From assembly GCA_051313645.2 (NCBI GenBank), contig JBNRSN020000004.1:85374001-85438000 (forward strand): a DNA stretch of 64,000 nt, read 5' to 3'. The stretch comes from Centroscyllium fabricii (Eukaryota). The translations under genes and the position numbers were made by a program. Below, in pieces: positions 272-51,261 of the stretch. The notes beneath the pieces are model-generated. The model did not search any database and had not been told where the DNA came from. It was given only the letters and a program-made list of their open reading frames with translations. Positions within the stretch are counted from its first letter, which is position 1, and each line of letters opens with the position of its first letter.

Positions 272-885
272 ATCTCGGAAGATCTCTCCTGGTCACTAAA
301 CACCTCCTCTCTGGTTAAGAAGGCCCAACAGCGCCTGTACTTCCTTAGGAAGCTGAAGAAAGCCAGGCTGTCATCCGGCATCCTCTCCAACTTCTACCGC
401 TGCACAATAGAAAGCATACTGACAAGCTGCATCACTGTCTGGTATGGTAATTGCACTATCTCGGACCGGAAAACCCTGCAGCGAGTAGTCAAAACTGCCC
501 AACGAATTACTGGTACACAGCTACCGTCAATGGAAAGCATCTACCTCAAACGCTGCTTACGGAGGTCTATGAACATTATTAAAGACCCCACACACCCCAG
601 CCACAGTCTGTTCGCCCCTCTGCCCTCCGGGAGACACTACAGAGCAATTCGCACCCGCACGACTAGATTTCAGAACAGCTTCTTCCCCAGGGCTGTCAGC
701 CTCCTGAACTCTAAAAAGAAACTCCGGTACCTGCACGCCTGACAATGAACTTTACTGTATGCAATTTGAATGTAATTTATTTATTTTGTTTGCACTACTC
801 TCGGGAGAGTCGAGTCTTCGTCTCGTTGTATTGTACTAGTACTCTGCAATGACAATAAAACTTGAATTGAATTGAATTGAATTGA
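272..885 (+). mobile_element. Rex1/Babar-type non-LTR retrotransposon, 5'-truncated 3' end
   Basis: Unbroken frame 272-742 (ISEDLSWS..KKAQQRLYFLRKLKKA..FYRCTIESILT..VWYG..DPTHPSHSLFAPLPSGR..RTTRFQNSFFPRAV), then AATAAA and a (TTGAA)n tail. Confidence 0.88.
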
Positions 886-15565: not shown

Positions 15566-16812
15566 ATAAGAACATAAGAAATAGGAGCAGGAGTAGGCCA
15601 ATCGGCCCCTCGAGCCTGCTCTGCCATTCAATAAGATCATGGCTAATCTGATCCTAACAACCAACCTACTATCACAGAACCATCTCCTGAATCTAACAGA
15701 ATTAGACACACAAAATAGGAGCAGGATCAGGCTACACGGTCCCTGGGCCCGCTCCACTACCCACAGGGCCATGACCAATCTGAACCTAGACTCATGTCCA
15801 AATTCCTGCCCACTCCCCATAACCCTTAATCCTTTTTACTACTAGGAAACTGTCTATTTCTGTTTTTAATTTATGTAATGATGTAGCTTCTACAGCTTTT
15901 TGGGGCAGCATGTTCCATGGACCTACTACCCTCTGAGTGAAGTAGTTTCTCCTCATCTCAGTTTTGAAAGAGCAGCCTCTTATTCTAAGTTTATGCCCCC
16001 TAGTTCTAGTTTCACCCATCATTGGGAACATCTTCCCGCATCCACCCAATCCAACCCCTTCACAATTTTATATGTTTCATAGAAACATAGAAACATAGAA
16101 GATAGGAGCAGGAGTAGGCCATTCGGCCCTTTGAGCCCGCTCCACCATTTAATGAGATCATGGCTGATCTTTGGCTGATCTTTCAAGTTCAGTACCCTGT
16201 CCCCGCCTTCTCTCCATAACCATTAATCCCTTTAGCCTGAAGAAATGTATCCAATTCCCTCTTAAATATATTTAATGAACTGGCCTCCACTGCCCTCTGT
16301 GGCAAGGAATTCCACAGGCTCACCACTCTCTGGGTGAAGAAATTCTTCCTCATATCTGTCCTAAATGGTTTACCCCTTATCCTTAGACTGTGGTCCCTGG
16401 TTCTGGACTCCCCCGCCATTGGAAACATTCTTTCTGAATTTAACCTGTCCAGGCCTGTCAGAATTTTATATGTTTCTATGAGATCTTCTCTCAATCTTCT
16501 AAACTCCAGCGAGTACAAGCCCAAACTACACAATCTAGCCCAAACTACACAATAAGATCTCCCCTCATTCTTCTGAACACCAATGAGTGGAGTCCCAATC
16601 TACTCAACCTCTCCTCATATGTCCAATCCCTCATCCCTGGGATTAACCGAGTGAACCTTCTTTGTACTGACTCGAGAGCGACTATGTCTTTTCTTAAGTA
16701 TGGACACCAAAACTGTATGCAGTATTCCAGGTGCGGTCTCACCAATACCTTGTACAACTAAAGCAATAACTCCCTATTTTTATACTCTATCCCCCTAGCA
16801 ATGAAAGCCAAA
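15566..16812 (-). mobile_element. Two nested CR1 LINE 3' fragments (inner copy about 16078-16540)
   Basis: ORFs [52 protein letters not shown]; tails (cataagaa)n and (catagaaa)n. Confidence 0.92.
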
Positions 16813-22879: not shown

Positions 22880-23560
22880 ATTTGTTCCGTGGCGCCAAAT
22901 GCGTGAAAGCAGGCGGGGATTTGCTCATGGCTGCGGTGCGGGTGCGGTGACTAACTAAGGCTAGGCTGCACGCAGGGCATGTGCTCAGGTGGTTCTGAGG
23001 TTTGACCATTGCACTCTGCGGTGGGAGCGCCGAGGCGCGCAGGCGCGCTACACGGTTTCCCCAACAGGGCTCCGGCGCGCGAGCCGCCAGCAGCGCCCGC
23101 CAAAAGAGTCACGTGGGCGGCGAGCAGCCGCTCTGCGGGCTGCAGAAACCCGGCCCTCCTTTGTCATTCAATACAGGGAAGGGGAAGATCAGAGCGGGGG
23201 GGGGACGGACGCGTAGGTAGATCATTAGTCAGCCTGCCTGCCTGCCCGATGCATTAGCTGAAAAATACAGCTAGTGCATAACATGTGAAAATAAGGCAAA
23301 CACAATTTGACGAGCCCGTAAAAAAACATCTGAAGCAAATTCGGCTGACTGGCGTCATGTGATTGAAACACCGAGCGTGGCCGTTTAGAATCAACGCTGG
23401 CGTCATTTCCAACGCCAAATACTCGGTGCTTTCTGCCCGTGCCATTTCAAACCAAATCCTTTCTAGGCCGTGGGGGGGGGGGGGCGATTATTTAAATGTG
23501 ACACCCTCCCCCCCTCCCCGGCACGAAATGTCAAGGCGAAAAAATAAAAAAAAGCTGCTC
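22880..23560. promoter_or_regulatory. Orphan CpG island between BMI1 and SPAG6
   Basis: Very high CpG and GC content (ggcgcgcaggcgcgc, ggcgcgcgagccgcc), GTCACGTGG E-box near 23108-23116, E2F-like GGCGCCAAA near 22891; no credible ORF. Confidence 0.65.
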
Positions 23561-25597
23561 TACTACCTGAAAAAAAACCGTTCTACATACATGGCCTGTC
23601 GCCACTAACCGTTCACTCAGCTCTTGTACAAGTTACAAAAAGAAACTGCTTGTTTGTGAGAAAAGGAAATCCGCTCGTTGAGCAAAGAGCTAAAAAAGAT
23701 CATGCAGCAGACAAGAACGTTACCCACCACTGACAACGGAAACAGGAAGCAGTTATCTGATTAAAACATTTACTAAGAATTTTGATGTAATATTTTTTAA
23801 GGGACTCATGAAACATTTGTATGTTTTTGTTAACGTCACCATGACACCCAACTTATGACATTTTCAATATACTTATGAACCACAATACAAGATCTTACTA
23901 TTGATAATAAAGGGCGCACTTCCTGATTTCTCCGAATTAAAGTATAAATCTAGTTTACACTCGATTTTCAAGTGCAGGAACACCAGCCTGCGTTAATTTA
24001 AATGAGTTCTTTTTATTATCTAAGAGATCGCTCAGCGAGTATTGTCGTGTTTAAGAACCCTGCAGTCACGTTTACTTTCTTAGCACAAAGAAAACGTGTG
24101 TTAAACTTAGATTGTAACGTTGATATGTCTTTATATCTAGTTTTCAAAGCTGCACCATAAGGCCATGAATTGTTTTCAGAGACGCCACCGACGTTTACAT
24201 TTACACTAACACATTGATATTGGATCTTTTTGTATTATTTGATTACCTGGCATTACCGTGAGGCATGGACAACCTGGTGGAACCTTAAACACCTGGTCAA
24301 GCTGCTCCTTTTTGTAGGCCAGGAAGTAATACATGAGATCATATACGTCTTTTTCAAAACAACTGTGATAACCGCGTATCTGTTAAAACATTTACAGAAC
24401 ACCTTAAAAAGAGTACAGATCAGGAAGAGACTTTGGATGCCGGTGGGTACGGTATTCGCCGATTGGAAGTGTGACTATAAAGTCGGAAATAGTGTATTTA
24501 CGTATTTCAGTAAAATTGCCTTTGTTGATCATATTGGAACTAAGGAGGCAGTGTCGTCACATCTCTGGCGTTCACCTTTGCACCCTGAATTCAAATCAAG
24601 AGCAGAATATTTGAACAAATTCGTCCGACTACTCTCCATCTCCCCAAACCTCTGCCTCCCCCTTTCCCCTTTGCCCATACATTTATAAGGGAATGAGCCC
24701 AGTGAGTCCAATGCTGAATTCACAATGCAACATTCATTCAATTGTCTGAAAAGGCCATACAGATGACATGGGAATGTCACACTTGTACAGCGATGGGAGA
24801 GATTACTTTGGTGAATTAAAGATTAAGTTACTTAGAATTTGCCAAGTGGGAACTATCTGATCCACTCAGTGTGCTAAATGGGTATAGGAAGTAAGGGGGG
24901 CTCCAGTTCTGGTGGCAAAATCTTTCATGGATCCCTCTCAAAATAATCAATTGTCTAAGCACACTAATGGAAGAGTTTTTTTTAATCTACCCATGTCATG
25001 CAAACCTAAAAGGTTTGTGCTGGCCTGATGCCCGTGGGCCTTTCTCAGTCTGTTTGTACTCACTGTCAGAAAAGCACTGTTAACGCAGTTATATTACAAG
25101 TATCTTAATTACCTGAGCCAGTGTTTTTGTTTGCTTTCCCTAGAATGTTGTTAACCGTTATCTTACCTTCAACGCAAAGGGGCATATTTCCTCCGTGTAT
25201 AAAGTTAAGGGAAATTCTTTTCTTAGCCCCTCATGAAGAAATTATATTCTAGGGAAGACGAAAAAGTAGTTTTTTTTAATTCAACTCTGCACACTGGAAA
25301 CATATGCCAGCCTCCAACAGCTACGTTGATTTGGTTCTGAGAGAAAGTGTTTCTGTCCACGTGAAAGCAATAGGAATGGTCGCCCTTTGGAGAGATTTGC
25401 TGCTCAGGAGATATGCTGATTGCTTTGTACTTTTGTGCAAGTGAAGTGAACTTTGAAAAATAATGCATTGTCAATGTCAGGTAATGACAATGCAAACCAG
25501 AGCAAATGCGGCCCCATTAATGTAATCCACATACAAAGTCAACAACATTTACTCGCTATTGAATTCATATCAATTAATATCAAAAACCACACGATAC

Positions 25598-29257: not shown

Positions 29258-29584
29258 TCAGCCTGATGATGCTGATGAGCCATTGACAGATGATTTGCGT
29301 GCTCTGTTGTTGCTGAATGGGATCTGATGGTTGGTATTAGGGTTGGAGGAGCCATTCATGGTAGTGGATATATGAGGAAAGTGTGGATGTGGAGACTGCC
29401 CTGGAGTACAGGGACTGGGCAGTGAGGATGATGTGGATGGTGCAGCAGCTGGGCTGTTAGCCTTGTCACTCCCAGAGTCACTTTCTAACTCTCCACTGGT
29501 ATTATTTAATCCATCTTGTTGATGACCAATCTTAATTCTTTTGCACGTTGGCCGCACTCGATATTTTAAAGGAAGTGGTCCATT
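29258..29584 (-). CDS. BMI1: BMI1 last coding exon (327 nt to TGA)
   Basis: [25 protein letters not shown]...[15 protein letters not shown]...[11 protein letters not shown]. Confidence 0.97.
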
Positions 29585-32500
29585 CTGAAATAAAATGTTA
29601 GATACATTAGTAAGGATTGAAGGTCTGAGATTAAATTTTCCTTGACCATTAGAATAGGTAGATTGGACTTACCCTCCTCCATGTGTAAATGTAAGCAATA
29701 TCCATAAGAGTGTAATAATCTTTCAATGGTTCATCTTCATACATAACATCAATCTAAAGTGAAAAGAATAGATGAATAACATATATATATTAAAGATAGT
29801 AGTATTTACAAAACTGCTTTATTTGATCATTACAAAATATAACACCTCTCAGAACTCATTGTAGGTTTATACAAATAACAATGCACCACTGTAAAGAATG
29901 AAACAAGCAAAATACATAAGTTCACATTACACTACAAGTTATATGCATTGTTTTAGTAACTCGTAGTAAGTCGCAACAACATATAATTGAATCCAACAAA
30001 ATTAAGTAACTATGAATATATTTTGAAGCCAGATGAGAAAATGTAACCTGCCTTTGAGTCATGAATGATTTACTTGCCAGGATTGACAAGAAATAAATAC
30101 AATTTGTCAAACTTGCAAATAACTACTGTGTATTTATCCCTCCATTCACAAGCTCTCATTGTCCCATTCTGGTTTGTTTTTTTGTTACATTTGTGGTCAG
30201 TAGAAGCTCTTCCCTATCTCAATGATTAGATCGTTCTCAACACCACAGATGTGTTTGATTTTTTAAAATATTTATTAAAATTGGATTGCAGTGGTAAACT
30301 TTTTAATGAGTTCAAAAGTGTTCTGGATGGGACAAATGAATAACTTTGAAAACATCTCCAGCAACACCTTGAAGTACCTTACATTTATTAAAATAAAAAA
30401 AAGATTCAACTATCATTTTTAAAATTCCATTTCACCTATCATTTTTAAAATTCCATTTCACAATACCATTTGTGCTGTAGTAATAAAATATACCCCATTC
30501 AAAACTGTATGCATATAATTTGTGTGTGTGCGTGTACAGGGGCCTCCAAATCTCTTTACATACAATATTTCAGAGCTGTATTGTGGTAGAATAAATAAAT
30601 AAATACATAGTTGAATGCTCTTCCTCCCAAACAAAACCAGTAAGGAAATAAAAATTATTTTTAATATTAGGACATAACACAAATAGTTTCCTTCTCAGAT
30701 GGAACCCTATTTATTCTTTATTAGAAATCATCATCCCTCTATAACTTTAATAAAGTGTAGCTCAATGTACCTGGAAGGTATGAGGGATGTCCATTTTACT
30801 CCTCAGGAATTTTCTTAAATGCATCACTGTCATGGCTGCCGGGCACCGCAAATATCGCTTGTCGTTCATCTAAAGAGAAAGAAAATCAAGATTTGAAATA
30901 CAGTGGCATTGCATTTGTTGATAAAGTGAATATTTCAGTTACTTTAAAATTAGTAGCAGCCTCGACTTTATAAATATGAGACTTCTTTCTATTTAATTAG
31001 TTCATCTTTGCTTGTTTAATGCCAGCTAAAATTAAGTATGTTTGTGCAAAACAGATAAATGTAAAGGAGTCACAGTTGACCATAGTTATATCACCTCATC
31101 TTTTGTCTTTTCTTTTTCTGCAGTTCCTTTTCGTTCAGTCCTGTTATACAAGACAGTCTCCATTTATTAATAAGAAAAAATGCAAAATCAAAAAGGTTTT
31201 TGAAACAATATACATATTATTTTGTATGATCACTGTACTTACTTATTTTGTTCATAGAATTCTATTGACAAGCTAATGATTTCATCATCTGTTATAATCC
31301 TCTTTTCTTCTTCTGTAACTTCTCCCCTGTCTTCATTCGAGCCATTTGCTGCTGTACAATTTTGAACATTAAAGAAGCAATGATTTCAGAATATTTTCAT
31401 GTACTTGGAGCCAATTAATCAATGCTTCAATACTAATTTAGAACATAAATCATCAGAAAATATAATTATTTCCTGTATTAAGTGAAAGATTAACTTTGCC
31501 ATACTGACAATGTTGGTGGGAACTCTAAAGGAGTAACAGCATAAAATTATCCTGATATGTACCAACAGAAAAATTTAAAATGTAACACAGGTGTGGGCCT
31601 AAGCAAAATAGTCTCTAATGCAACTATAAATTCATTTTTATCTGATTAGACATAGTTATTAAATGATAGCAACAACTACACTCTAAAGTCAAGAGTTTTC
31701 AAAACTAAAAACTATTTACAAAATGTATAACAAAAATTACAGTGCAACAGATGCACCACACTGACATAAATGCTGAAAATCTTTTAAAAGTATCACTTTA
31801 CTATTTTGTGAAAATAATTGAAAAATTTCTGCTGGTGACGAAAACCTGTCCTTTTTCAAAAATATTCTAGTATTATGTTTGTTAGGGAAAAAATCACTAC
31901 ATTTTTGTAGCACCCACTAACCAGCAGCAGAGGGATGGGCAGCATAGAAATCCCTTCTACGTTTCATTTCATCTATAAAGACAAAAGCCGATTAGTCACC
32001 TAATTGACAAGAAAGAGGAATTCAATTCAAATGTAAATTTGTCTTATAAACAGACTACTGTGCTTACCTTTGAAAAGGCCAGGAACTAATTTATACACAA
32101 TATCTTGTAAAGTCTTATCTGACCTAAAAAGGATTTAGACAGAAGTCAATTAATTATCAATCATCATCACAACAGTCATATTTTACAACACTACAGAAAG
32201 ATTTTATTCCACGTCATTTTATTCCACATAGTATTCATCAATACCACTTCCATCTACACAAGTAATAGAACTACTTTATGTGAATGCCAAATAACTGTTC
32301 ACTTTATTTGAACACAACAGTATTCCAAAATGCAAACGATTTCTCACTTTTGGTCCTTTACATATGCTGTTGTTCATTAAATTATAGATATACAGGTACT
32401 ACACAAGTGGAGCTATGTAGTCTGTAAACACTCATTTTTGGTGAAAAGTGTTCACTTAACAGGAATTTATAAGGTTTATTCAATTGATAATTGATTGCTT

Positions 32501-33910
32501 ATGTAGTTATTAACTGGAGCAACTAGATATATATCTGAGTTTTCAATTTCAGTTCTGGAGATGTGTGTATTGATTAACTGGGATGGAACTATTTGTATTT
32601 TTAGAGCAGATCAGAAAAGTATTGAGCCTTGCATCATGATTACTCATTTATACATATTATCCAATCTATAAATGTTTTAAATATATATTAGATATATTTT
32701 GCAATGCCACAGGAACATTTTCTACCACATATTCAATATCATTTTCTTTTAGTTGAGTAATAATAGAACTAAATTTAGTGAATCAAGTTTGCCATGGTTT
32801 TGTCTAAACTTTGTAAGAACTGGCAGGATAATGCCTGTGGCACTGTTCCATGCTTACTTTAGACTGTAATTGGAGATTTTTTTCCATAAAATGTTTCAAA
32901 TTAGTAAACCTGATTGATTGGGCAACTTGAGCAAAAGGTGCTCACTTTAACAAAACTTGCAGCAAATTTGTTCAGTTATTCTTTTTAATTATCAGTTAAC
33001 ATAACTAAAAAAGGCAAACATTTCCAAGTTCAGTTCACTCAGCAGGAACAGCCACCGACTGTACAGTATTTCTAAAAGAGTGCTGAATATTATCACGGAG
33101 CATTACATGATCTCAATTCTTGGAGCTACTACCAAAGTTTTCCAAATAACCCATTCTGTTTTGATACAAATACACAATTTGAAAAACACCCCATTCTTTA
33201 TTCAATTATTGTCAACTACTTTCAAATGAGAAGTTTAATACCAATAAAACAGAATTACCATTTTCTGAGATTCCAGTTTACAAAATATCCATAGTAAGTG
33301 GGTATGATAAACGTTTAATAAAGCACATTCATTATCTTCAAGTAGTACTGCACTATAGGCCCTGCAGTTTAGCTATAGTGTGTGTAGTTTGATAATTGTA
33401 TTTTTGTCAATCTAACACATGTATCAGCTCCGTGTCGTACAGTAGTTACAATCACACTTCCCACACCAACACATTTAACGGTGCAATCAAACATTATGAT
33501 CACTAAGTACACGGATACATACCTAATGTTAAGCAGGGGCCTAGTTTTGTGAACTTGCACATCGCAAATAGGACAGTACTTGCTCGTTTCCAAGTAACGG
33601 ACGATGCAGGTCTTGCAAACTGTGAATAAAAGCAGGAATCGTGTGCGGTTATACATAAATCGGCTGCAGTGGTTGACGTGGTAACAAGAAACGGTCTGTG
33701 ACACCTTTGTTGATATACGTTAATACTTAATAGTGCTGTTTTCTCATTCCTAACATAAGTAAGGGGCCTGCTGAGCTGCAGCCTGTCAGTATACTTACAT
33801 GAATGTAGACACTCAATGATGGTTGTTGCATCTATGAAGTATCCTCCACACAACACACACATCAAATGAGGATTCAGTTCTGTTATTTTGATTCGTGTTG
33901 TTCGGTGCAT
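29258..33910 (-). CDS. BMI1: Polycomb complex protein BMI-1 (PCGF4), complete spliced CDS, 325 aa
   Basis: Exons 33799-33910, 33523-33619, 32068-32123, 31922-31972, 31243-31351, 31095-31140, 30771-30869, 29673-29753, 29258-29584 sum to 978 nt. All introns are GT-AG and phases are consistent. Translation [57 protein letters not shown]... (RING), RAWUL region, Pro/Ser tail ending [13 protein letters not shown]. Confidence 0.98.
29673..29753 (-). CDS. BMI1: BMI1 coding exon 8 (81 nt)
   Basis: [27 protein letters not shown]; TAG acceptor, GTAAGT donor. Confidence 0.97.
30771..30869 (-). CDS. BMI1: BMI1 coding exon 7 (99 nt)
   Basis: [33 protein letters not shown]; TAG acceptor, GTACAT donor. 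Confidence 0.96.
31095..31140 (-). CDS. BMI1: BMI1 coding exon 6 (46 nt)
   Basis: [15 protein letters not shown]; CAG acceptor, GTGATA donor; length keeps the frame between the flanking exons. Confidence 0.9.
31243..31351 (-). CDS. BMI1: BMI1 coding exon 5 (109 nt)
   Basis: [37 protein letters not shown]; CAGCAG tandem acceptor, GTAAGT donor. Confidence 0.95.
31922..31972 (-). CDS. BMI1: BMI1 coding exon 4 (51 nt, contains the KRRR nuclear localisation signal)
   Basis: [17 protein letters not shown]; TAG acceptor, GTTAGT donor. Confidence 0.96.
32068..32123 (-). CDS. BMI1: BMI1 coding exon 3 (56 nt)
   Basis: [18 protein letters not shown]; TAG acceptor, GTAAGC donor. Confidence 0.96.
33523..33619 (-). 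CDS. BMI1: BMI1 coding exon 2 (97 nt)
   Basis: [33 protein letters not shown]; CAG acceptor, GTATGT donor. Confidence 0.97.
33799..33910 (-). CDS. BMI1: BMI1 coding exon 1 (112 nt, start codon)
   Basis: [37 protein letters not shown]; donor GTAAGT. Confidence 0.97.
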
Positions 33911-36900
33911 TTTCTGACTAAAATGGCCGCGTTCTGAAAGCTGAACAGAAATAAAACGCGCGTGTAAAAGGGATAGTTTATTTAATTCTGGAGTTCCACT
34001 CCAGATTAAGTTTACTGGCTTGGTTTATTGTAACTGGCCCACATTATAAGTAGGATACAATCATTGAGCTAAACAACTGTTCGTATCCACAATAGCAAGT
34101 ACAATTTTTTAAAACCACAATGATCAACAATTTATAATTTCTGAAACATTAACATTGTTCGCGCGAAGTATCATGGAATCAATATTCTGGCATTTCTTGG
34201 CCCTCGGTTGACTTAGTCTTAATTGGCAAATTTGTAAAACAAAACCGCTTTGTAAAGATATTGCTAGCTCCAAAGCTAAGAATCGCTTTTACTGAAATAC
34301 TGACAAGCTGAAGCACGGGAGTTGTATGTGAAGAGTTGTAAAAACCGGACTGAATGTGCCAAATCGCACCCAATTAATGCAAAGTGGCGAATCCATTGAA
34401 AGGCACAGTGAATCATTTTCGTAATCAAACAGACTTTATGATCTTCTGCAGACCACCTTTCCTCTGACCTCCACGGTGATTAATAATAAAAAAAACACGA
34501 ACCAACCACATGCAGGTTTATGACAATGAATTTTTGAATAGCACTCCCGATCGTTCTTGCTGCCTTTGTTTCCTGCATGTTTAAGCATAACAAAACCGCC
34601 TTTTCTAGACTTTACTTCCAGATACAAGGCGGCTGTACCAAAACACACTTCTTTCCGCGAAACCCACATGCCTTTGGGCTCATATTTACGCCGTTTTCAG
34701 ACGCGTCTGAATAGGTGAAAATTTGTAATAGGACAAAGCGACCATGTATTTAACAGAACACTTTTGTGTTACAGGGATCGTCGCATCTGGATTTGCAATC
34801 ACGCGTTTTATGCCTGACATTAAACCGACAATTCTATAGCCCCGCGTAAAGCGAAACAGGAAGAATTGTGTTCTATAAAGCCATTTCCGGCAATTACATG
34901 TTCGTTGGAAATATTTTAATGAACATCGGGGTGCAATGTGACGCGATGCAGATTACACAAGCTGACCCGTTACAAATTTAATAAATAAAATAATGCTCGT
35001 GTAGTACACGAGGACCATTCTTAATGATCAAAAAGGCAAATTGACGTCTGCTGGTGCCCATACTCGGCAATTCTTGCAGTTACTATAGCAACTTGGGTTA
35101 CACTTGGCATTTTGCCAAAGGACCGAAAATAGAGCGAGCTTCTGTGGGGGAACCACGGCGGTCATGTGGAAATATCGCAAATTTAAAACCGACAACGCAA
35201 TCACGATCGGAGGACGATCTGAGCAATCTAAACATGCAAATCTCACCGCCATTTCAAATGAGCCCTGACACAGCGCACATCATCGTTTTTTCGGCTCTCC
35301 TTGAGATAGTCTCCACGTCGACACTAGCTTTAAGTAGTGGCTTTTGTGATCACACGATTTTCTTCTGCAAAACGCCTCTCTCCTTTCCAGATCGGCGAAT
35401 GGGTAGCTGCGATTCCCCAACAGAGGATCACTTTGATAGAGAGCACGCCTATTGATTAATAATTAATTAACAAGTGATCAGGAAAAAAAACCCACACAGG
35501 AATGAAGATTCAGCGTCTCGCCAAACTTTGTCGGGTTTGTTGCTCACAGAAAACGTAAAAAAATAAAAAAGGAAACAGTTTGCTATTCTTAAGAAACCAG
35601 CAAGAAACTGACAACATGCAAATAACTATGTGACGCACAGAATTCAGAACGAGCCAGGCAGGGCAAACAAACAGCAGACACTGCCGGCCAGAGGGGAAAA
35701 AGTGATTATTTGTCGCACTTATTTACAGTACCTACTACAGTATATAGACTGTTAAAATAAATTAATTCATTACAGTTCATGTATATTAGGTTTAGGGACG
35801 CAAATTTTACCCACAGCGCCGACGCGCGACGTTTCGAAGTAATCAAACTACAACATCAGGTCATAAACAATCAGCATTTCTATATTTTTTAATATATTGC
35901 AATTGGCGCTGAGACACACGCGATACAGACTTCAGTGGACTTCCAGTCATTACGCCTTCAGGCAGTCTAAGGCAACAGACTGAACTCACTGCTGGCTCTC
36001 CGCTTATTTACTGGAGATTAACCGTTTTTTATACGGATGTCCTGACTCCACTCGTGCCCCGAAATCTCACAGCAACAAGCACCTTGTTTTCTCATTTAGT
36101 TGGAAGACACGGGAATCGCGCGAAGGTTTATCCATCCGTCTGCAGTCCGCGTGTGGGCTTTCAGCGGACTCTCACTATCAAGGTAGCGGCGAGCCATTCC
36201 GCGAAAGAGAGAGAGATAAAAGGAAAATAAAAACAAACCACGTGTTCCAGTCTCACCATCAGGCTCGTGATCGGCCCCTCTTATCAGAGTCAGATCAACA
36301 GGACGGGTGTGGATTTAGCTGATCAATAGATTAACTACTTCATCTGCGAAACCTTCATCAAGGACAGACAACTCCACCCTGGTATATATATATATATATA
36401 TCCATGTTTTATTTCACATACCCGTGGGCTTCCGTTTATGCTGGATAATTCATTTCAGCTGTGGAACTTTGTGTCTCCCTGATTTATTTTTTAAGCCTGA
36501 TGTTCTTTATTATCAGCGGGGTAAACAATTAACCTTTATGACATTGTACTCACACCATCCCGAAGCAACAAAGAAACCCATTTCAAAGCTGCATAAAGTA
36601 CAAAAAACAACGTATACTGTTTGACACATGGATCTTCAAGATGCTGTATGAGAAACAGCACCCATATCTCAACAATGCGTTTAATATTCCAGAATATCCA
36701 ACAGTGGCACTGAGAAAAAGTACGGTCTACTGCAATATAACCAGCTGTGCATGTATATTACAAAGAAATCTAAAATCAGACCCAATCACACCATCGCCGC
36801 CACCACCGACACACAAACACCATTTCTGAAAACTACATATGTTCTGAGCTGTAGTTCAGATTTAAATAATTAGGTTATTAACTAAAATAACGTTTGTCCC

Positions 36901-37949
36901 AGCTACAATCAATGATCCGGGTAAAGGGAGCACGGTCATTTGGACTGTTTAATTTGCTTTTAATGGTCATACTGATTGGGAGCAACCATACCATTAGAAG
37001 AGAAACAACGTTTTTTTGTCTACATAGAGCTCTTAGCTGTTCTCAAATTCCTGTTCCCAGTACGTTCGCTATAGTACATCACAGCAGAGACCACTCTGTA
37101 ATATTAACAAAAGCCTATCTGGCGGAAGGGACAGGTTTGGAAACACGTGTGTGTGTGTGTGTATACTCTCATGCAGTTTCAGTTGTCCTTGTCAGTTGCT
37201 GCTTGCTTGGAATAAACCAAAAGGATTTTGCTACCAAGGCCATCAATGGCCCCTTGCTCCATATACACTCTGTATCTCCAAGCAAAACATAATCAGGTTG
37301 TATAGCAGCTCTTCACCTCCCCCCTTCCCCACCACGACCACCATCTTCACTATTAACAACAACAAAACAACACAGAACTGAAACAGTACACGCCGCCAAC
37401 ACGTTCTCAGAATCCGCTCTAAAATCTAACTGGACAAAAAAGGGGGAAACACTCACTAACTCCCAGTCATACCCAGAGCCAGCAAACCTCGTGCTCTGCC
37501 TGGAAAATCATTGCTGTCAATCTGATACAGTTCTGGTGACCAATTATAGAAAAGTAGAACATGTCCACAAAACACGCATGAAAAGAACATCGCATCGTCT
37601 TGATAGTCGGTTATGACAAAGCTTTGCATGTTTCTTGTTTGTTTATTTGCTTCTGACACCACCAGCACTGTGCGGGGATACGAGGGGCACCGCCACCGAC
37701 CGCCATGTTTACCGTCCAAATCCGAAGAAGTACTCTTAAGAACTTAAGTTCAGAAAACACACCACACTCGACCTTTCCCCCAAACAGTCACACAAGCACA
37801 TTCCCTACCCTGTGTGGATCTTAACTCTATAAAATCGTTCCACTGGGTGCCCCGTTTGATGTCAAAATATACCTTTGTATCCGAGTTGACTAATAACGCT
37901 TCGGTGGTGCAGCAGCACATTTCCACCGTGGTCAAATTTCAAAGAAATC

Positions 37950-38800
37950 TAAATAAAAATCAGCGACACTTCGAGCCTCCCAACTTGCAACGATCGAAAG
38001 TATAAATATTATTCCGTCGATGCAAACGGGCAGAAAGGTCGCAGACCCGAGCGCCGCGGAGTATCGAACAAAAATTTTGCAAATGAAGTGCGTAACGAAA
38101 CTGAGTGGAAATAAGGAGGGCGACGAGCCGCTGTCAGCCTTAAGAGCGAGAGGAGAGAGAGAGAGGGAGAGAGAGAAAAAAGAGAGAGAGAGAGAGAGAG
38201 AGGCAGCACCGGGTACATTTCAAACAGCGAAATCGGCCTCAAGCCGCGGCCGGGATGTACCTGGCAGATCTTTTCCAGACAGTCCAATCTTGGAGAGACT
38301 ATACCCGGGGCCCGGCGACTCCCGGCCACAGCCTGCACCCCGCGGAAAACAATGAAAGTTGTAGATCAGGGGGAAAAAATGAATCGCAGCCAAGCGGCCA
38401 TCTTGCATGAACTGCAGACGCTGTCAATTGCAATCGCAGAGGCTGCAGCTTAGCGAGAGAGAGAGAGAGAGAGAAATAACATTCGTAAACGCCGGCCCTT
38501 CACAACCCTCGCATCCACCCTGGCAGGACCCGACCCGAGCCGCACTCTTGCAATATTTGTTCAGCCCATTCTACCTGGTTCCGAGGCGGCGGCGGGGGCT
38601 TATTCCCGGTGGTAGAAGTTGGAGAGCGGAAAAAAAAACCCACCCCCGAAGCCCAGTGATGGGTGCCGTGAAACTGACACCGTCCCCAAAATGGCTCGAG
38701 TTCGACCGCCCCGCTCCGTCACGTGGTCTCATTCCTTAAGGGTGGCCTGGGAATTAGAGTCGGTGTAACCAGAGCCGACCCCCCCTCCCCTCCCCACCCC
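37950..38800. promoter_or_regulatory. BMI1 CpG-island promoter with E-box, GC box and YY1 motif
   Basis: High CpG and GC content. GTCACGTGG at 38718-38726 (E-box 38720-38725), CCGCCCC at 38706-38712, GCGGCCATCTTG (YY1) at 38394-38405, (GA)n tracts near 38146-38202 and 38455-38474. Confidence 0.8.
38261..38600 (-). other. BMI1: BMI1 non-coding first exon (5' leader; start approximate)
   Basis: Minus-strand ATTGACAGCGTCTGCAG..CAAGATGGCCGCTTGGCTGCGATTCATTTT..AACTTTCATTGTTTTCCGC resembles the mammalian BMI1 exon 1 as I recall it. Candidate donors are CAG|GTACAT at 38261/38260 and CGG|GTATAG at 38305/38304. Confidence 0.7.
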
Positions 38801-40328
38801 TTCAAAAAATACCACCAAATAATGCACCCTTTACCAGCTCCAGCCCTATTCCACCAATAGCACGCTTTAAAAATAATCTATGCATAACGCCCGGCACAAT
38901 AAAAGGCCAGTGGTTTCGATACAAAAAAAAAGGTTACTGTACAATACAATATGAGGGTAAACTTTGTTAGAGTCTCGGATCACATCCGAGAATAAATCTT
39001 AGCCAAGAGATCAAATGAAAGCTTCCCTTCCTATAGATCTGTACGCTGGTGTTTAAAAAAAAAGTATCAGTTGAATATCATGCGAGTAGATTGCTGCTGT
39101 GCAATTATGCATAGAAACTTAATTTTGTCGTGGCTGGGGATTGGCAAGAGGCGACCCTATTTTTAATCCAATTTTTTCCCCATTTGAGCTATTTGTTGTA
39201 TTGTTTACACCATCATAATTCTTGCCAGCACAGGAAAAAAAAAACCTACGGGCACTAAAACGTGCCCGAGTTGCTGAAAGCGGTTCACTTCACAAACCCC
39301 ACCTCTCTCCGTGCTGTCGCACCGCCGACTCCCCGCTAAAATCTAACTTTCTGGCGTTCTTTTTCAATTTGGCCAACAAAAACAGATGCAAATGGGTTTC
39401 CATTGAAGGGGGTGCAGGGGGGGGGGGGGGGTCCCCCGGTCCCCCAAGGTTAGACGTAGCAGTTTTATACATCTGCGACTGAACGGACTGACAGACATTT
39501 TGTGATCACGTTTATTAAAAGTTTAAGAATTCACGTGAGGGACAGAAACAAGCCTGCGTTGCGCTCCAAACGCAATTTAAAAGTTGTCTTTGCATTGACC
39601 TGACTAGTTTCCTAATTTCTTAGCAAGTCGTGTGAGCAAATTCCACTGTTACCACGCACACATGAGACAATAACCGCCAAACGACGTCTAAGGTGTGAAT
39701 AATGGACAATTATATGTAATTATTCGGTAATATTTTTTTTTAACAGATTGTGTTCCAGTCTTTCTGCCCTCCACACACACCACCACCCCCACTGGCAGTT
39801 ACAGATGAACGTCAGGAGAATTAGAGATCTCCTCAAAATGTTGGGTTGTTTTATTTGAGGGGGTCGGGATACATTCGAATATGGCAGACGGTGAAGAACA
39901 GACTTACACTTGTCATGTCAAAATATATACAAAATCTCGCGTATCTAGGAAATTGCAAACAAACGTGAAATGATTTTAAACCAAAAAAAAATAGAAAGCA
40001 CCAAATATGATAGTTCAGACTGTAGGAAGCATCTCTTTATTATAGAAAAGTGTTATATATACAGTCAAACGCGAATAAAGTACATTTTAGTTACTGCAGC
40101 AATATACAAGTCTGATACAGCAAAACTCGCCCCGAAATTCTACAAGCATTTTATTCATTTCAAGTACAAAGCGGAATTTTATACATTCGCCAAAATGCAA
40201 CGTTTGAACCATTTCTGGATTGACTGTTGTTCACGTCTCTCTGGAAGCTGGGAGCCGCAGGTTTAGGCGGATTCCTTGTATGCCACCCACAGCCTCGAGT
40301 TCAATCGCGGTCCCCACAGCTCCATCAA

Positions 40329-40388
40329 TTACATCTGACTCGCCTTCTCCATGCTTTTAGCTGCGTCCTTCAACTTTCCCAAAAGATC
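40329..40388 (-). CDS. COMMD3: COMMD3 exon 8 (60 nt to TAA)
   Basis: DLLGKLKDAAKSMEKASQM*; candidate AATAAA downstream at plus 40150-40155 and 40036-40041. Confidence 0.95.
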   Translation of the reverse strand, partial: DLLGKLKDAAKSMEKASQM

Positions 40389-43300
40389 CTGCAAAGGGAA
40401 AACAGATTTTAAAAATATAATATACATTATATATTTAAACAAAGGGAGGCAGAAAGAAGTCTGCTTCACCGACAGGGTGGGATGAGGGAATTATTTTACT
40501 TTTATAGAAGCTCCTGTTAAATCGGTTTCCAGGATAAACTCCCGCACTAAGGCATTGCACATCGGAATGTAACTTCAATGCAAACAAAATATTTTTTTAA
40601 AGTTCAACATATTTAGTGACTTTGTAACCATACAAGGTTATTTTCCTGCACTTGGTCCGTAGCCTTGTATGCCATGACTTTGTTTCCCCCTGTTAAAGCA
40701 AAAGCAATTAGAAGCGTCGATTCTTAACCGTCGTGATACATGGGCTGGTTCTTTTTCGGTACATTAAAAAGTTAACTTTTTTTTAAAAAAAAAAGCACAC
40801 AACTGTGCCAAGCTTTAGCAATCCATAATTAGACTTTTTCCCCTTTTAATTCTAAGCTTCCGGCTACAAAAATTAAAAGCAAACAATTTTGCTAAACTTT
40901 TCACTGTGCAATGGGGTCATGCCGGCAACAAAATTTACATTGTAAGCTAGTAAACTTGGCGATGTTTTATAACACTTAGCATTAAAAAAAAAAATTTCGT
41001 AAAATACCTCTAGCAAAAATGCCGACTGCTGTGGCTTTTAACACAATGTGCAGGGTTTTGTAAATTCAAGAAAGGGCTGCTACTGAACAATACAAAATGT
41101 GACAAACGGCATTAGCAATAATATTGAAACTTGAAGTTATTTACATTAAAGTTTCCATAGAATCATACCGGTGTTTCACATTAGTTGCTAAAGACAGTCC
41201 ATATAAATACAAATCAAAGCCATCAGAGAACACCAGGCTAAACCACAAAATGATTCTCTTGCTCCCTACAATTGTAAATTAAAACAATTAAGTATATACA
41301 AATTTATTAGAACTGATATTTGCATGAGATGCAATTTAAACTTAGAGAACACTTTAAAGAGATGCAAAATGCAGCGAGGTAATTGCAATGAAGGGTTCAT
41401 CTATTCCAGGAAAAAATTGCATAGCAAATAATGAAGTTTGGATTTTTCTCTTTCAATAGATGGAGTAAAAGTGTCAATAAAAATCGTCACAAACAGCAAC
41501 GAATAACATGTCAGTGTACAAAAAGTGGTGGTTCTTAAAATCAATGTCATTGAAATTTTAAACTCTAGTATCTTTATGAACAAGAGACTCAAATGAAAGT
41601 TGATCTCTGGCCAATATGTGGCTTGCATTTTAGGTGATCCCACAATGTACTTTGTCTTCGAATAAGCCATTTGTTATTGAAGTTGCGTTCCAGAAACAGT
41701 GAGTCACTGACACTTCTGGCATCAGTCCAACTAACCACATGTAAAGTCTAACATCTTCTTACAATTCGGCCTAAAAAGCAACAAGCGTCAGTAAATGAAT
41801 TTCAGACTTGACATCTGGAGGAGAAAGCACCTATATTTTGTAAAGGAGGTAATGTTTTGCTAGAATACCTGTAATTGCTCCATTGTACAACTGAAAGTAA
41901 CATCCTGAGCTGGCCGGGATTCACCATTCTGGAAAAGGTTAAAACAATATTGAGCCGTGCTAAATAAGCAACTCAAATGCAAAACACAGTGTCCACTTGT
42001 TTTAACGCTTACCTCTACATTTAATGTTAATAAATATGCTGGCTGGTTGACTTTGTGAAGTTGGTTATTCTGGAATACATTAAAAAACAGTTTAGTGGGA
42101 GGTATACAATATGAAAATAACTGGAGGAAAGGTTGTGCCTGGCTATTCTGAAAGGCAAGCATGAAAATATGAAACTTTACACTTTTTACCCTAATGTGAT
42201 ATTCCAGGCGCCAAGAAGCATCAGTGATGTGAGAAGGAAATCTTCCTATGCTGCAAGACAGTCAACAGGAGTAAAGATTAACATTGTACAAAATAAAATA
42301 CCAAACACTATTCCTATTATTGCCTTTTCCCAATGCATCTGATCTCACCCTTCCAAAGTCAGCAGGAGTTTAATAACAACAGGGTTTCATCCAAATAGTA
42401 ATTTTGGCTCAAATTTTCCAAAAACTCAATTTAATCCAAGTCTGATGTTGCATTGTTGTGGAGATACTACTGTTCACTGTGAAAGAGAGAAAATCTTCCG
42501 CGTATAAGCACAAAAAGTGAGCGGGTAAAAATAAAAGTTTCGAGATCGATGGAAATAGGATGTCGAACAGATCATTAGAAGTCGAATTCACTGTATACAT
42601 ATCCTTTAGTTTATAAACACAAGTCACCTTTCCAATAAACTTGCCAAACCTTGCAGGCAATACACTAAGTGTATTGTATAAACATAGACAAAGATTAATT
42701 AGCAAGGATAGAAGTGCTGATGTTAAAATAATTCGACAGTTTATTTCGATTCCTGGCTCTTGCTTGCCTTAATTTGTCCAAGTGTTTAGCACGTGCTGCC
42801 GAGGTGCATGGGGAAACAAGACTTTATCCCTCTTCTCGATTATGGAGTGAGAAGGCATTTAAAATCCCTCCACAGACCCACATTCAGCTATAGATTGGAA
42901 TGTATGATCCAGAGGCAACAAGTACAGTTTTAAGCCAATAACATTTATCAAATTATTCAGTGTTGTGCATGCTATATATCAGTTGAACCAAGACTAGTCT
43001 AAACATAGTTTTAGAAGTATTTAAATTGGACTGTAAACTTTCACTAAGCTACCTGTAGTTGAACTTTGTGCATTTTCAAGGTAGACAATTGAATGATTTT
43101 ATGACAGACATAAGCATGATCCAAACTGATTGTATATGGGATTAAAACACAACATATTTCAGTTTATAAATATTGTACCCAAGATGCAACACACGCACAC
43201 CAGATCCTGAAGTTATATACTGTAGACTAGCTGCACAACACTTACCCTCCTAGTAAGGTTTCCACTCTATCTTTGTTCTTCTAAATAATCAAAAGGAAAC

Positions 43301-44751
43301 ACAGGAACTTAGCCACATTATCAAAGCTACAATGTTGGCTTCAGTTAATATATTTTCAGTAAACGTATAATATGTAGGTGCTTGCATCAGTATTTTACCT
43401 GTGTAAACGTGTTCTGACAAATCCATAAGGAACTACAAGATCACAATCCTATAATAACACCTCCTTAAACTAGTGATCTACATGGTCAGCTATACACTAG
43501 AAAGTCAGGGCATTGGTTGTAATAAAACAAAAAGTCAACCATTTGCCTGGTTGCGTTGCTTCGCATTCTTTTCGTGGCAAACTCTTCCTAAATTGCAGTA
43601 ATCCCAACAATTTTACAAATGCACAGTATGGTATGTAATAGTCACCAAACCTGGTATGCTGCACAAAATATGTCTATTCTTTCTCCTCCAAATCTACAGT
43701 CTTCAAGTAATGTGCTGAAATTAAAGAACATCAGTTACAAAATGCCTCTACACCTAAAAACAAATATTGAACTGAATACACAATATTCATAAATCTTGGA
43801 TATGTTGTAACCTTATAGTTGATTTATCAGCGTTTTGTTTTCCTGCCTCCAGTACACAGGTTGCGATGGCTACATGGCATTGTTTCAGCAAAGTCAAGTC
43901 CAAATTTCCCAGCTCTACATGATCTGCATAACAATAGTAAATTATAATGATTCTCAATACGATTTCCACATAAAACGTAAGGCTTGTCACCTATTAGAGT
44001 ATTGCGTCTGGTTCAGGACATACGTGACATTTAGTAATGGCGTCATTATTTTGCCTACCACTTTATAAACCAAACAATGACAGTTACCTCCCGGAAAAAT
44101 TAGGTAAAACATTTTACTCTGTTTATACCGAATTATTTTGACATGTTGTGCCTTCAATGATAACACCTACAGTACGTAGTCTTTTACGCCTACAGTACAT
44201 AGTCTTTTACAAGTGTTATCTTTTGCCTGCTTTTACTTACACTAAATATGTTGGGACCTTAAATATTTGTTAAGCAACCCAGATAAAGCAGATGTTCAGT
44301 CGGCAACCCTGGTGCATTAGGCCCCAGGATATTCGTCCACAACAATGAACAACAACATCCAGACTCAACATGCATTCCGCGTCAAGTCGGCAGCTCAAAA
44401 AAGGTATCACTCAACAGAAACGCATTTGGCAAATAACACACTGTTGCAAATGTTATTTATAACTGGATTCGGGAACATTGCGACACAGAGCCGTTTGCAA
44501 AGGAACGGCCCGACCGTGTCCTTCCTGCATTAAATCACTAAAAGAACCAGCAACAGTAGCAGCCGCTCTCGCCCTCCCACCCTCCGCAAACAGCTCGGAA
44601 CTACGCGCTCACCTAATGTTGCTCCGTCTGTTTGTGGGTTTATGAGGCTCTCGAAAGCCGCTTCCACTAAAATGTGGAATGTTTTGTTGGAGAAGTGGCT
44701 GGGATCGGCCAGCAATTGCAACCCTTTCAGTGCATACTCTGGCAGCTCCAT
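40329..44751 (-). CDS. COMMD3: COMM domain-containing protein 3, complete spliced CDS, 195 aa
   Basis: Exons 44613-44751, 43812-43923, 43651-43714, 43246-43280, 42190-42250, 42013-42069, 41869-41928, 40329-40388 sum to 588 nt, all GT-AG. Starts MELPEYALKGLQLLADP; COMM domain HITDASWRLEY..PAYLLTL..FSCTMEQLQDLLGKLKDA. Sits directly upstream of BMI1, as in other vertebrates. Confidence 0.97.
41869..41928 (-). CDS. COMMD3: COMMD3 exon 7 (60 nt)
   Basis: NGESRPAQDVTFSCTMEQLQ; donor GTATTC. Confidence 0.95.
42013..42069 (-). CDS. COMMD3: COMMD3 exon 6 (57 nt)
   Basis: NNQLHKVNQPAYLLTLNVE; donor GTAAGC. Confidence 0.95.
42190..42250 (-). CDS. COMMD3: COMMD3 exon 5 (61 nt)
   Basis: IGRFPSHITDASWRLEYHIR. 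Confidence 0.95.
43246..43280 (-). CDS. COMMD3: COMMD3 exon 4 (35 nt)
   Basis: KNKDRVETLLGG; TAG acceptor, GTAAGT donor. Confidence 0.9.
43651..43714 (-). CDS. COMMD3: COMMD3 exon 3 (64 nt)
   Basis: STLLEDCRFGGERIDIFCAAYQ. Confidence 0.94.
43812..43923 (-). CDS. COMMD3: COMMD3 exon 2 (112 nt)
   Basis: DHVELGNLDLTLLKQCHVAIATCVLEAGKQNADKSTI. Confidence 0.95.
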
Positions 44752-48209: not shown

Positions 48210-49212
48210 CAGCGGATGCTGAGTCTTAGGCAGTCCCTCGGAACCGTGGATGATTTGCTTCCACATTAAAAATGAGTTTGCAGGTGACTGCTGAGTCCAA
48301 TGCAGGGCCTACAGTCTCTGTCACAGGTGGGGCAGACGTTGATTGAAGGGGTGGGGTGCTTGGGTTGACGTGCACTGCCTGTGCTTGGCTTCCGCTTGCT
48401 CCTGGCAAAGAGACTCGGTGTTTGCCGCCTTCCTGGATCCATCGCCTCCACTTTGTGTGGCCTTGGGCCACGGATTCCCAGGTGTCAGTGGGGATGTTAC
48501 ACTTTTTCAAGGAGGCTTTGAGGGTGTCCTTGAAGCGTTTCCTCTGCCCACCTGGGGCTCTCTTGCCGTGCCGGAGCTCTGAATAGAATGCTTGTTTTGG
48601 GAGTCTCTTATTGGGCATGTGGACAATGTGACCCGTCCATCAGAGCTGATCGAGCATGGTCAAAGCTTCGATGCTGGGGATGTTGGCCTGAGCAAGAACA
48701 CTGATGTTGGTGCACCTATCCTGCAAATCCATTGGCAGATCTTGTGGATGCAGCATTGGTGGTACCTCCCCAGTGCTTTGAGGTGCCTGCTGTACATGGT
48801 CCATGTCTCTGAGGCATACAGCAGGGCGGGTATCATTGCTGCTCTGTAGACCATGAGCTTAATGCTGGGTTTGAGGTCCTGGTCTTCAAACACTCTCTTA
48901 CTCAGGTGACCGAAGGCTGCATTGGCACATTGAATGCAGCGTTGGACTTCGTCATCGACGTCTGCCCTTGTTGACAGTAGGCTCCCGAGGTATGGAAAGT
49001 GGTCCACGTTGTCCAAGGCCTTGTCGTGGATTTTGATAATTGGGGGGCAGTACTGTGTGGCGGGGGCAGGTTGGTAGTTGGTAGAGGACCTTTGTCATAC
49101 GGATGTTTAGTGTAAGGCCTATGCTCTCATATGCTTCAGTGAAGGTGCTGACGATGGTTTGGAGTTCGAACTCCGAGTGTGCGCAGACGCAAGCGTCATC
49201 TACATACTTTAA
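48210..49212 (-). mobile_element. RTE-clade LINE fragment (RT YxDD motif to 3' end), frameshifted
   Basis: KYVDDACVCAHS, VDHFPYLGSLLS, ALLYASETWT, RLPKQAFYSELRHGKRAPGGQRKRFKDTLK, C-terminal CPTCDRDC..H zinc knuckle. Confidence 0.92.
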
Positions 49213-51261
49213 TTTGAGTGCTGCCCATTGCAAGACCACTTTTTCAGTGCAAAGGATTGTGCTATGGATGCCAAAAATGCAGTATAATTAAGGCTTTATT
49301 CTGTATTATGCCTGTATTTTGCTTGACCTGGGAGTACTGCACTTGTGCCAAAATAAAAATGAATTCCATTCTCTAGCATTGACTCCCCAACCCCTGATAA
49401 ACACAAGAATTCACTAAGAAGTGAGTTATTAAACTAGATTACACAATGCAGAATTAAATATGAATCAGTAAGGCTGAAGTAAATTTGGAACTAAGATGCA
49501 AACAGATAATTAGAAAGACTACTATGCAAACTATTGTAAAAGTAATTTACAAGAGATATAAATTCTCTATACGACATATAAAATGTAAGGAGCAAAGCCT
49601 AATGTATTTCAGCAGTGCCTTTACTGATATATGTAACAACTGTTTTGTACTGTATGGTAATCCTATAGGGAAGAACTCCATGGGATTTAATTTTATCTGG
49701 TATTTGGATGCTGGGGATCCCAAGCAGAGGCCAAGTGCCTCCCCAGAGCGAGTGAAGAAAAAAGTCAGGCAGCACTCAAAAAAAATTAGAAGTTGTCAAA
49801 TGACCTGTCCCACACTTCCCAATGCCTACTTTTATTCATGTATATTATATTAATTTATAGTATATTATCCAGATACCAGATAAAGTTAAAACACTTTGGT
49901 GCACATGGCAAACTTGCCAAGCTTAACTGAAAATGGTGCATGACATGAGATAAATAAAAAGAGGGGCTGCCTAGAAAGCCTTGCGTTAAAGGCACCTGGT
50001 GCACCATTTCATTGAGTAAAGTTCCACAGTTCCATTCTCCACTGGAGCAGCACAATAGGTGCTATAATTTGCTTCAATACCCCTGAGCTGGGGGAGGGAG
50101 AAAATTATCCAGGGCCCTGATTTTGATTGCGATCCAGTGACTCCTGTTGGAAAGTGCAAATTTGGAAATGTTGAGTGAGAACAGAGCTAGAATCAAGCTG
50201 TACTGTGATGCCCATTTAATGGCTGGCAACACCATTCACTGTCTACTCTCACTGATGAAGAATGAATGGCTATTGGCGGTTTGTAGGATTTTGTGATAAT
50301 GTACCCCAGTATGAATCGCTTCTGGAAAAGAGGGGGAACCAACAATGTGTGTTTACTTAGCGCATTTATCTTGCGACAATGTCCCAAGGTGCTTCACAGG
50401 AGCATAATCAGACAAAAATTGACTGCGAGTCAAAGAAATGGGATATTAAAAGGGGTGATTAAAATCTTGGATACAGAGGGAAGTTTTAAGAAAAAGGTGG
50501 AGAAGTTTAGCTTGGGAATTTTGCAACTTAGGGCCTAGACTGAAGGATGCATGATCTTGTGGGACGAAAGGAATGGGGTAATGTGTAATTGGCCAGAGTT
50601 AGAGGAACACCGAGTTCTTGGAGGATTGTAGGGCTGGAGAAGGGTCAAAACAAGGGAAACATGGAAAAATACTTTGCACAGTGCACCTAATGTTATGTTG
50701 CAGTTCTTACTTTGCTGCCCATTTACTGCTTGTGCATTTTTTTAATGCATTTTTAAACTTTAGTGTTCGCAAAGAGCCAACTGTCCCATCAGCTTCTCAG
50801 TGACGTTTAAAAAAAACAAACTGGTGAGAACTCCTCTGATGGCTCAGCAAATTCATGCCACAAGCAGTTAAGCCATAACTGCCCTAAAAGGTTCCAAGTT
50901 TTGATTGCTAGTTTGTGCTGAGGTAGTTGATCGCAGATAGATTAGGAGTAGGAATGCTACCAAGGGGAAGGAGAGGAGTGGGCTCCTATGTAATGGTCCC
51001 TGCAGCTGAATTGCCAATCAACACACAGTGATTGCCACTTGGCCAAGGTATGAGGAGGTTACTGGTGCTTGCAGAACTGTATCCTAACAATTAATATTTT
51101 TAAGGGAGGGAAAAAATGGCACAAGGAAAAAGAAATTGGTGAGAATAACTAAGAATGATCTGATGCATGCAGTATCATCAAGCACTGCCAGTTTCATAAG
51201 AAATAGGAGCAGCAGTAAGCAATTCAGCCCTTTAAACCTGCTCTGCCATTCAATAATATCA

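What the first reader, a model, noticed from the sequence alone, without database searches (positions are those of the whole stretch)
33911..41928. Locus is splice-compatible with an in-frame COMMD3-BMI1 read-through protein
Seen: the COMMD3 stop is only about 1.7 kb from the BMI1 first exon, on the same strand. COMMD3 exons 3, 5, 6 and 7 end in phase 0. The acceptor after the best pyrimidine tract upstream of the BMI1 ATG (ttttatttctgttCAG, exon start 33940) leaves exactly 30 nt. These read CTT TCA GAA CGC GGC CAT TTT AGT CAG AAA ([10 protein letters not shown]) with no stop, in frame with the ATG. Exon 7 spliced to 33940 would give 176+10+325 = 511 aa. Established: a COMMD3-BMI1 read-through is annotated in human. 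Inference: the capacity for this fusion may predate the bony/cartilaginous fish split.
Basis: partly seen in the sequence, partly recalled or inferred. Interest (0 to 1): 0.7.

Follow-up and report, generated by a model that had tools for sequence, protein, structure and literature searches.

The report
Shark BMI1 leader, not COMMD3 fusion
In RNA from close relatives of this shark, the short open stretch before the BMI1 start codon is spliced to BMI1's own upstream exon, which likely adds 12 amino acids to BMI1; it could join the neighbouring COMMD3 gene in frame on paper, but the known human fusion protein uses a different frame that fails here, so this is an ordinary two-gene neighbourhood.

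Summary
The arithmetic is right: COMMD3 exons 3, 5, 6 and 7 end in phase 0, the acceptor at 33940 leaves 30 stop-free bases, and exon 7 joined to it would give 511 aa. That is weak evidence: any leader length fits some COMMD3 donor, and 64% of local 30-mers are stop-free.

That exon ends in ATG GCG, in frame, predicting a 337-aa BMI1 with 12 extra residues; this isoform is already annotated in four other sharks. This is the likely reason the leader stays open.

The human 469-aa fusion is built differently: exons 1-4, exon 7 in a shifted frame, and an inferred 19-nt leader. That route is out of frame here (155 aa), and the shark route would be out of frame in human. The commonest read-through pattern (exon 7 to BMI1 exon 2) stops at 182 aa. 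The gene pair is ancient; a shared fusion frame is not. Rare chimeric RNA is untested, because contigs drop rare forms.

The parts
44613..44751 (-). COMMD3 exon 1 (CDS, phase 1)
   Evidence: single copy in own genome
43812..43923 (-). COMMD3 exon 2 (phase 2)
43651..43714 (-). COMMD3 exon 3 (phase 0)
43246..43280 (-). COMMD3 exon 4 (phase 2); last in-frame exon of the human-type fusion
42190..42250 (-). COMMD3 exon 5 (phase 0)
42013..42069 (-). COMMD3 exon 6 (phase 0)
41869..41928 (-). COMMD3 exon 7 (phase 0); its end is joined to exon 8 in contigs
   Evidence: loose ends at 40391 carry exon 7 letters in 4 of 4 runs
40329..40388 (-). COMMD3 exon 8 CDS and stop; residues 177-195, including the end of the COMM domain (Pfam 123-185 on P0003)
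39842..40328 (-). COMMD3 3' UTR as far as contigs reach; AATAAA at 40155, 40041, 39855
   Evidence: contig ends do not show the RNA end
38575..38696 (-). BMI1 exon 1a (non-coding; 5' end not defined), joined to 35448
   Evidence: joint in X1, X2, X4; donor place read from the letters between the joint sides
38261..38332 (-). BMI1 alternative exon 1b; joined to 35448 in one low-depth contig; joined to 33940 in phase 0 in three shark gene models; the ATG of those models is ATA here
   Evidence: X3 depth 3.6; P0001, P0048, P0050
35247..35448 (-).
   Evidence: joined to 33940 in 4 of 4 runs
35254..35283 (-). 9-codon uORF (two ATGs, A at -3) whose stop lies 1 nt before the in-frame upstream ATG
   Evidence: translation untested
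35247..35252 (-). In-frame upstream ATG + GCG (G at -3 and +4), predicted start of 337-aa BMI1
   Evidence: same N-terminus in P0092, P0093, P0097, P0098
34639..34683 (-). Candidate alternative exon end with in-frame ATG and GT donor, 15 codons, phase 0 to 33940; 15 of 15 residues equal the N-terminus of Carcharodon model X1
   Evidence: no joint seen for it
33911..33940 (-). 30-nt open leader of BMI1 exon 3 ([10 protein letters not shown])
29258..33910 (-). BMI1 canonical CDS, 9 exon pieces, 325 aa (RING + RAWUL)
   Evidence: domains on P0092

Best explanation
The 30-nt stretch opens BMI1's third exon and, in contigs from close relatives, is spliced to BMI1's own upstream exon (35448-35247), whose last two codons ATG GCG are in frame and likely start a 337-aa BMI1 with a 12-residue N-terminal extension; the frame match to COMMD3 is likely a by-product. 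Shown: the junctions, the ATG, the frames. Inferred: scanning ribosomes meet a 9-codon uORF, then the ATG at -36 (G at -3 and +4), then the canonical ATG (A at -3), so leaky scanning and re-initiation would give a mix of 337-aa and 325-aa BMI1. COMMD3 is likely a separate transcript ending at its own poly(A) signals. Occasional read-through would most often join exon 7 to 35448, stop at 182 aa and be a predicted decay target.
For: Joint 33940-35247 in 4 of 4 runs, 3 studies; the exon 7 end joined to exon 8 in 4 of 4. In-frame ATG at -36 gives 337 aa. Annotated 336-337-aa BMI1 starting [12 protein letters not shown] or [12 protein letters not shown] in Carcharodon, Cetorhinus, Mustelus and Scyliorhinus torazame; the skate model's HLKWR is compatible with the same ATG. 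Two more upstream exons with in-frame ATGs feed the leader in phase 0 in other shark models (349 and 350 aa). Leader open in 10 of 10 named cartilaginous fishes whose models show it; the one length change (Callorhinchus, +1 codon) keeps frame, whereas the UTR part of exon 2 shifts frame twice between this shark and the skate. Exon 7 to 35448 stops 181 nt before the next junction; last-exon/first-exon skipping is the commonest read-through pattern (PMC6862657, passages).
Against: No ribosome or peptide data: the 337-aa models are predictions, and pipelines pick the longest open frame. Cetorhinus also has a 325-aa model (P0090). Conservation does not single out coding: the non-coding part of exon 2 also matches the skate over 18 straight codons in a frame that carries stops here. 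The leader set is biased, since a species with a stop would not yield such a model, and one in-frame indel has a 1-in-3 chance. The runs are of relatives (pieces mostly 90-99% alike), listed as 'RNA?' by guess though they show GT-AG joints; 44 differences were not shown, so I could not confirm the ATG in them. The good-context uORF may suppress use of the -36 ATG.
Confidence: 0.65

Rival explanations
1. The leader is plain 5' UTR. It is open by chance and conserved because the BMI1 5' region evolves slowly or holds regulatory elements; the -36 ATG is rarely used and almost all protein starts at 33910. No fusion either.
For: 54-64% chance of being stop-free; flanking UTR also well conserved; uORF stop 1 nt before the -36 ATG; leader length differs in mammals (19 nt inferred) and in the paralogue L002 (likely 17 or 5 nt), so 30 nt is not general.
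Against: The -36 ATG has the better context and is kept in at least four other shark species.
Confidence: 0.27
2. One reading: read-through RNA joins COMMD3 exon 7 (or 3, 5, 6) to 33940 and makes a functional 511-aa (or 440, 472, 491-aa) COMMD3-BMI1 protein, and this keeps the leader open.
For: Frames fit. Acceptor is real. Leader stays open in the relatives seen. Human read-through RNA and fusion protein are reported in SK-OV-3 cells (PMC12638823, passages). A RING2-BMI1 chimera with BMI1 at the C-terminal end has a solved structure (6WI7), so N-terminal additions can be tolerated.
Against: The human fusion frame differs. The join must skip exon 8 and two BMI1 exons. 0 of 7 fused cartilaginous-fish models use it; all keep exon 8 and differ in linker, 29-135 aa. 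It would cut the COMM domain at residue 176 of 123-185; the overlapping C-terminal helices bury the dimer surface (PMC6089597, passages); placing that helix in exon 8 is my inference.
Confidence: 0.05
3. A fusion that keeps exon 8, using the GT inside ATGTAA at the COMMD3 stop or a donor just before it, as in public models of 520-1200 aa.
For: 48 of 85 fused proteins held keep the start of exon 8, including all 7 from cartilaginous fishes; the GT lies at the stop here too.
Against: Linkers run from 22 to 650 aa and mostly do not align between species; the skate model follows the real UTR exon through three different frames of this shark's sequence. This is the pattern of gene-prediction merges (inference).
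Confidence: 0.03

Closest known systems
Human COMMD3-BMI1 read-through protein (NP_001190991.1, 469 aa; P0063)
   Same: Same two genes, same order and strand, short gap; COMMD3 exon lengths fit; uses the exon 7 donor and the acceptor of the ATG-bearing BMI1 exon.
   Different: Human skips exons 5-6, reads exon 7 in +1 and uses an inferred 19-nt leader; it has the HN domain but no COMM domain hit. Here the leader is 30 nt, that route gives 155 aa, and an extra exon sits before the ATG exon.
Shark BMI1 isoforms of 336-337 aa (XP_041040100.1, XP_078394412.1, XP_078090689.1, GCB68056.1)
   Same: Same 12-residue N-terminus or one substitution; same length as predicted here.
   Different: None seen; all are predicted models without protein evidence in what I could see.
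Merged COMMD3+BMI1 gene models in cartilaginous fishes (P0001, P0007, P0010, P0011, P0048, P0094, P0095)
   Same: Run from COMMD3 through the same open leader into BMI1.
   Different: All keep exon 8 and use different linkers; none is the 511-aa form.
Type I cis-spliced read-through (conjoined) transcripts, e.g. GALT-IL11RA (PMC6862657)
   Same: Close same-strand neighbours; donor of the last internal exon.
   Different: The Type I join here (41869 to 35448) is out of frame with an early stop.

Membership tests
COMMD3-BMI1 read-through (human type) | COMMD3 directly upstream of BMI1 on the same strand | tested here: met
COMMD3-BMI1 read-through (human type) | Exons 1-4 + shifted exon 7 + leader in frame with BMI1 | tested here: not met
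   155 aa, out of frame; 172-192 aa via exon 2
COMMD3-BMI1 read-through (human type) | Chimeric junction present in RNA | tested here: inconclusive
   4 of 8 RNA-like runs laid, contigs only, COMMD3 exons 1-7 outside the laid stretch; contigs cannot show absence
COMMD3-BMI1 read-through (human type) | Fusion protein detected | not testable with these tools
   no proteomics
Type I read-through fusion protein | Second-to-last exon of gene 1 to second exon of gene 2 keeps frame | tested here: not met
   41869 to 35448 stops at 182 aa
BMI1/PCGF4 with upstream in-frame start | RING and RAWUL domains, BMI1 orthologue | tested here: met
   translation; Pfam on P0092; best PDB match human BMI1
BMI1/PCGF4 with upstream in-frame start | In-frame ATG on a spliced upstream exon, no stop | tested here: met
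BMI1/PCGF4 with upstream in-frame start | ATG kept in relatives | tested here: met
   4 other shark species by annotated protein; skate compatible only; chimaera not seen
BMI1/PCGF4 with upstream in-frame start | Initiation shown at that ATG | not testable with these tools
   needs ribosome profiling or proteomics

The most novel reading that the evidence does not exclude
Cartilaginous fishes make a regulated COMMD3-BMI1 fusion by a route of their own (exon 7 to 33940, 511 aa), while tetrapods reach an in-frame fusion by another, so the conjoined transcript has been kept or re-invented since early jawed vertebrates, linking endosomal Commander to PRC1.
Probability: 0.05. Interest if true: 0.55.

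Novelty: already known. Interest (0 to 1): 0.15.

Why it matters
Little as it stands. The human read-through is annotated and the shark 337-aa BMI1 is already in public gene models. Two useful points remain: frame compatibility does not show an ancestral fusion here, since human and shark need incompatible routes; and many public 'BMI-1-like' proteins of 520-1200 aa look like merged models that hide COMMD3. If sharks really vary the BMI1 N-terminus through three upstream exons and a uORF, that would be a modest new point in Polycomb regulation.

Tried and rejected
Run search: no RNA holder listed on record; 8 of 14 rows were guessed RNA with shares 0.06-0.07, and 4 of those 8 were laid. No chimeric joint and no loose end at 33940 appeared; this is not counted as evidence, because contigs drop rare variants and COMMD3 exons 1-7 lay outside the laid stretch. 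No relatives are held as genomes. Two metagenome pattern scans for host DNA found 0. Exact look-up of canonical BMI1 parts found 1 of 5, so skate, chimaera, Heterodontus and Chiloscyllium isoform sets were not seen. The first census (72 proteins) used a filter that dropped teleost models and was replaced. Acceptors 33933, 33917 and 33913 were not seen in contigs. Coordinate slips of one base (exons 2 and 4, last BMI1 exon, exon 1a end) were corrected or do not change any frame. Earlier-findings look-ups gave nothing on this locus. PMID 36445330 is not held. No fold or complex job was run; neither would decide the question.

Full report
Observation. The window holds COMMD3 and BMI1 of a shark on the minus strand. 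COMMD3 exon 1 is identical to a Pristiophorus japonicus model, though other residues differ. COMMD3 has eight coding exons (195 aa) with phases 1,2,0,2,0,0,0. The acceptor at 33940 leaves 30 stop-free bases in frame with the ATG at 33910. BMI1 is 325 aa and exons 1-7 + leader + BMI1 give 511 aa.

Chance. COMMD3 offers donors in all three phases, and each of the four candidate acceptors tried fits at least one. Ten stop-free codons occur in 4031 of 6271 local windows and in 54% of 20,000 leader shuffles. Even for exon 7 alone the chance is about one in five (1/3 x 0.6).

RNA. The run search listed 14 runs, 8 guessed as RNA; none is on record as RNA. I laid 4 of the 8 (three organisms, three studies, contigs only) on 33400-40400. 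All four join 33940 to 35247 with GT-AG ends. That exon, 35448-35247, is joined upstream to exon 1a (donor 38575) in three runs and to exon 1b (38261) in one low-depth contig. All four carry exon 7 letters in front of COMMD3 exon 8. So 33940 is a real acceptor, but it opens BMI1's third exon. No chimeric joint appeared, which says nothing about rare forms.

What the leader likely is. Exon 35448-35247 ends GAA ATG GCG, in frame with the leader, predicting 337 aa. A 9-codon uORF stops one base before that ATG. Public models of 336-337 aa with this N-terminus exist for Carcharodon, Cetorhinus, Mustelus and Scyliorhinus torazame. Two other upstream exons supply in-frame ATGs in other shark models: exon 1b (349 aa; the ATG is ATA here) and a piece at 34683-34639 that matches Carcharodon X1 in 15 of 15 residues. 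The leader is open in all 10 named cartilaginous fishes whose models show it: 10 codons in nine, 11 in Callorhinchus. Against over-reading: only species with an open leader can yield such models; the neighbouring UTR is also well conserved in the skate (18 straight codons in a frame with stops here); and no translation data exist here.

Human comparison. The human read-through protein (P0063, NP_001190991.1, 469 aa) follows COMMD3 to the end of exon 4, then reads exon 7 in the +1 frame. The shifted peptide is codon-compatible with in-frame exon 7 of related mammals at 18 of 19 (Saguinus vs human) and 19 of 19 (Capra vs Budorcas) positions; shuffles average about 5, maximum 13. Taking the exon lengths as here, the implied leader is 19 nt; a Tupaia model using exon 2 gives 19 as well. 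The same route in this shark is out of frame (155 aa). The shark route would be out of frame in human (528+19). There is no shared fusion frame to inherit.

Public fused models. Of 121 proteins held, 85 join COMMD3 to BMI1: 48 keep the start of exon 8 with linkers of 22-650 aa, 34 are human-type (tetrapods only), 2 are other, and 1 (P0019) was classed as exon 7 in frame but begins with the first residues of exon 8. These are cluster representatives plus at most 15 members per cluster, not a full census. All 7 from cartilaginous fishes keep exon 8, with unlike linkers of 29-135 aa; none is the 511-aa form. I read them as prediction merges, and some non-mammalian human-type models as projections of the human entry (implied leaders 19-43 nt); both readings are inference. 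They do show that the gene pair is adjacent across jawed vertebrates.

If read-through occurs. [quoted passage not shown] Here that is 41869 to 35448, which stops at 182 aa, 181 nt before the next junction, a predicted target of nonsense-mediated decay (rule recalled). The 511-aa form would also lose COMMD3 residues 177-195, inside the COMM domain (123-185), whose C-terminal helices bury the dimer surface (PMC6089597, passages).

Papers seen. Passages only: PMC6435891, PMC12638823 (RT-PCR and western for the human fusion in SK-OV-3), PMC7891386 (gene lists only), PMC6862657, PMC13529871 (Umbreen 2019 seen only as a table row and reference), PMC6089597. Listings only. 'COMMD3' with 'shark' gave 1 unrelated paper. 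The BMI1/upstream-start search listed 20 of 192 papers, one mentioning BMI1. So I found no paper on a shark fusion or the extension, but subscription journals are largely not held and no supplements were read; fusion lists in supplements could bear on this.

Verdict. Observation confirmed; interpretation partly supported (old gene pair, no shared fusion frame). Best explanation: BMI1's own upstream start, 0.65. Novelty: already known. Interest 0.15.

Noticed in passing
L002:1450-1611 (G000:C778): BMI1 paralogue, 36 of 37 residues alike in the first coding exon (CALCGG; likely PCGF2/MEL-18, name recalled), with a likely 17- or 5-nt leader; COMMD3 exon 1 has no second copy in the genome.
   Followed up: partly
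window 34476-34841 and 34934-35240: Low-depth unspliced contigs from all four runs lie in the BMI1 intron around the candidate exon at 34683-34639; conserved and possibly an alternative first exon.
   Followed up: partly
window 36073-36647: Further low-depth contigs from X1 and X4 in BMI1 intron 1; conserved non-coding sequence or retained intron.
   Followed up: no
window 38261-38332: Exon 1b frame is open and conserved, but the ATG seen in Pristiophorus, Heterodontus and Cetorhinus models is ATA here.
   Followed up: partly
window 40329-40334: The COMMD3 stop sits in ATGTAATT, a donor-like GT that many public gene models appear to use to splice past the stop.
   Followed up: partly
PDB 8GRM chain M: A BMI1 RING fragment is labelled 'COMMD3 protein', likely naming spill-over from the read-through annotation.
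   Followed up: no
window 22900-23600: CpG-rich island with poly-G/C tracts about 6 kb downstream of BMI1; possibly a promoter of the next gene.
   Followed up: no
window 272-742, 16189-16599, 48226-49287, 51686-52338, 53071-54636: Open frames that look like decayed LINE- and Penelope-type retroelement pieces (assignment by eye, recalled).
   Followed up: no
window 62137-62511: The reverse-strand translation resembles that of a tRNA gene or tRNA-derived SINE; not scanned.
   Followed up: no
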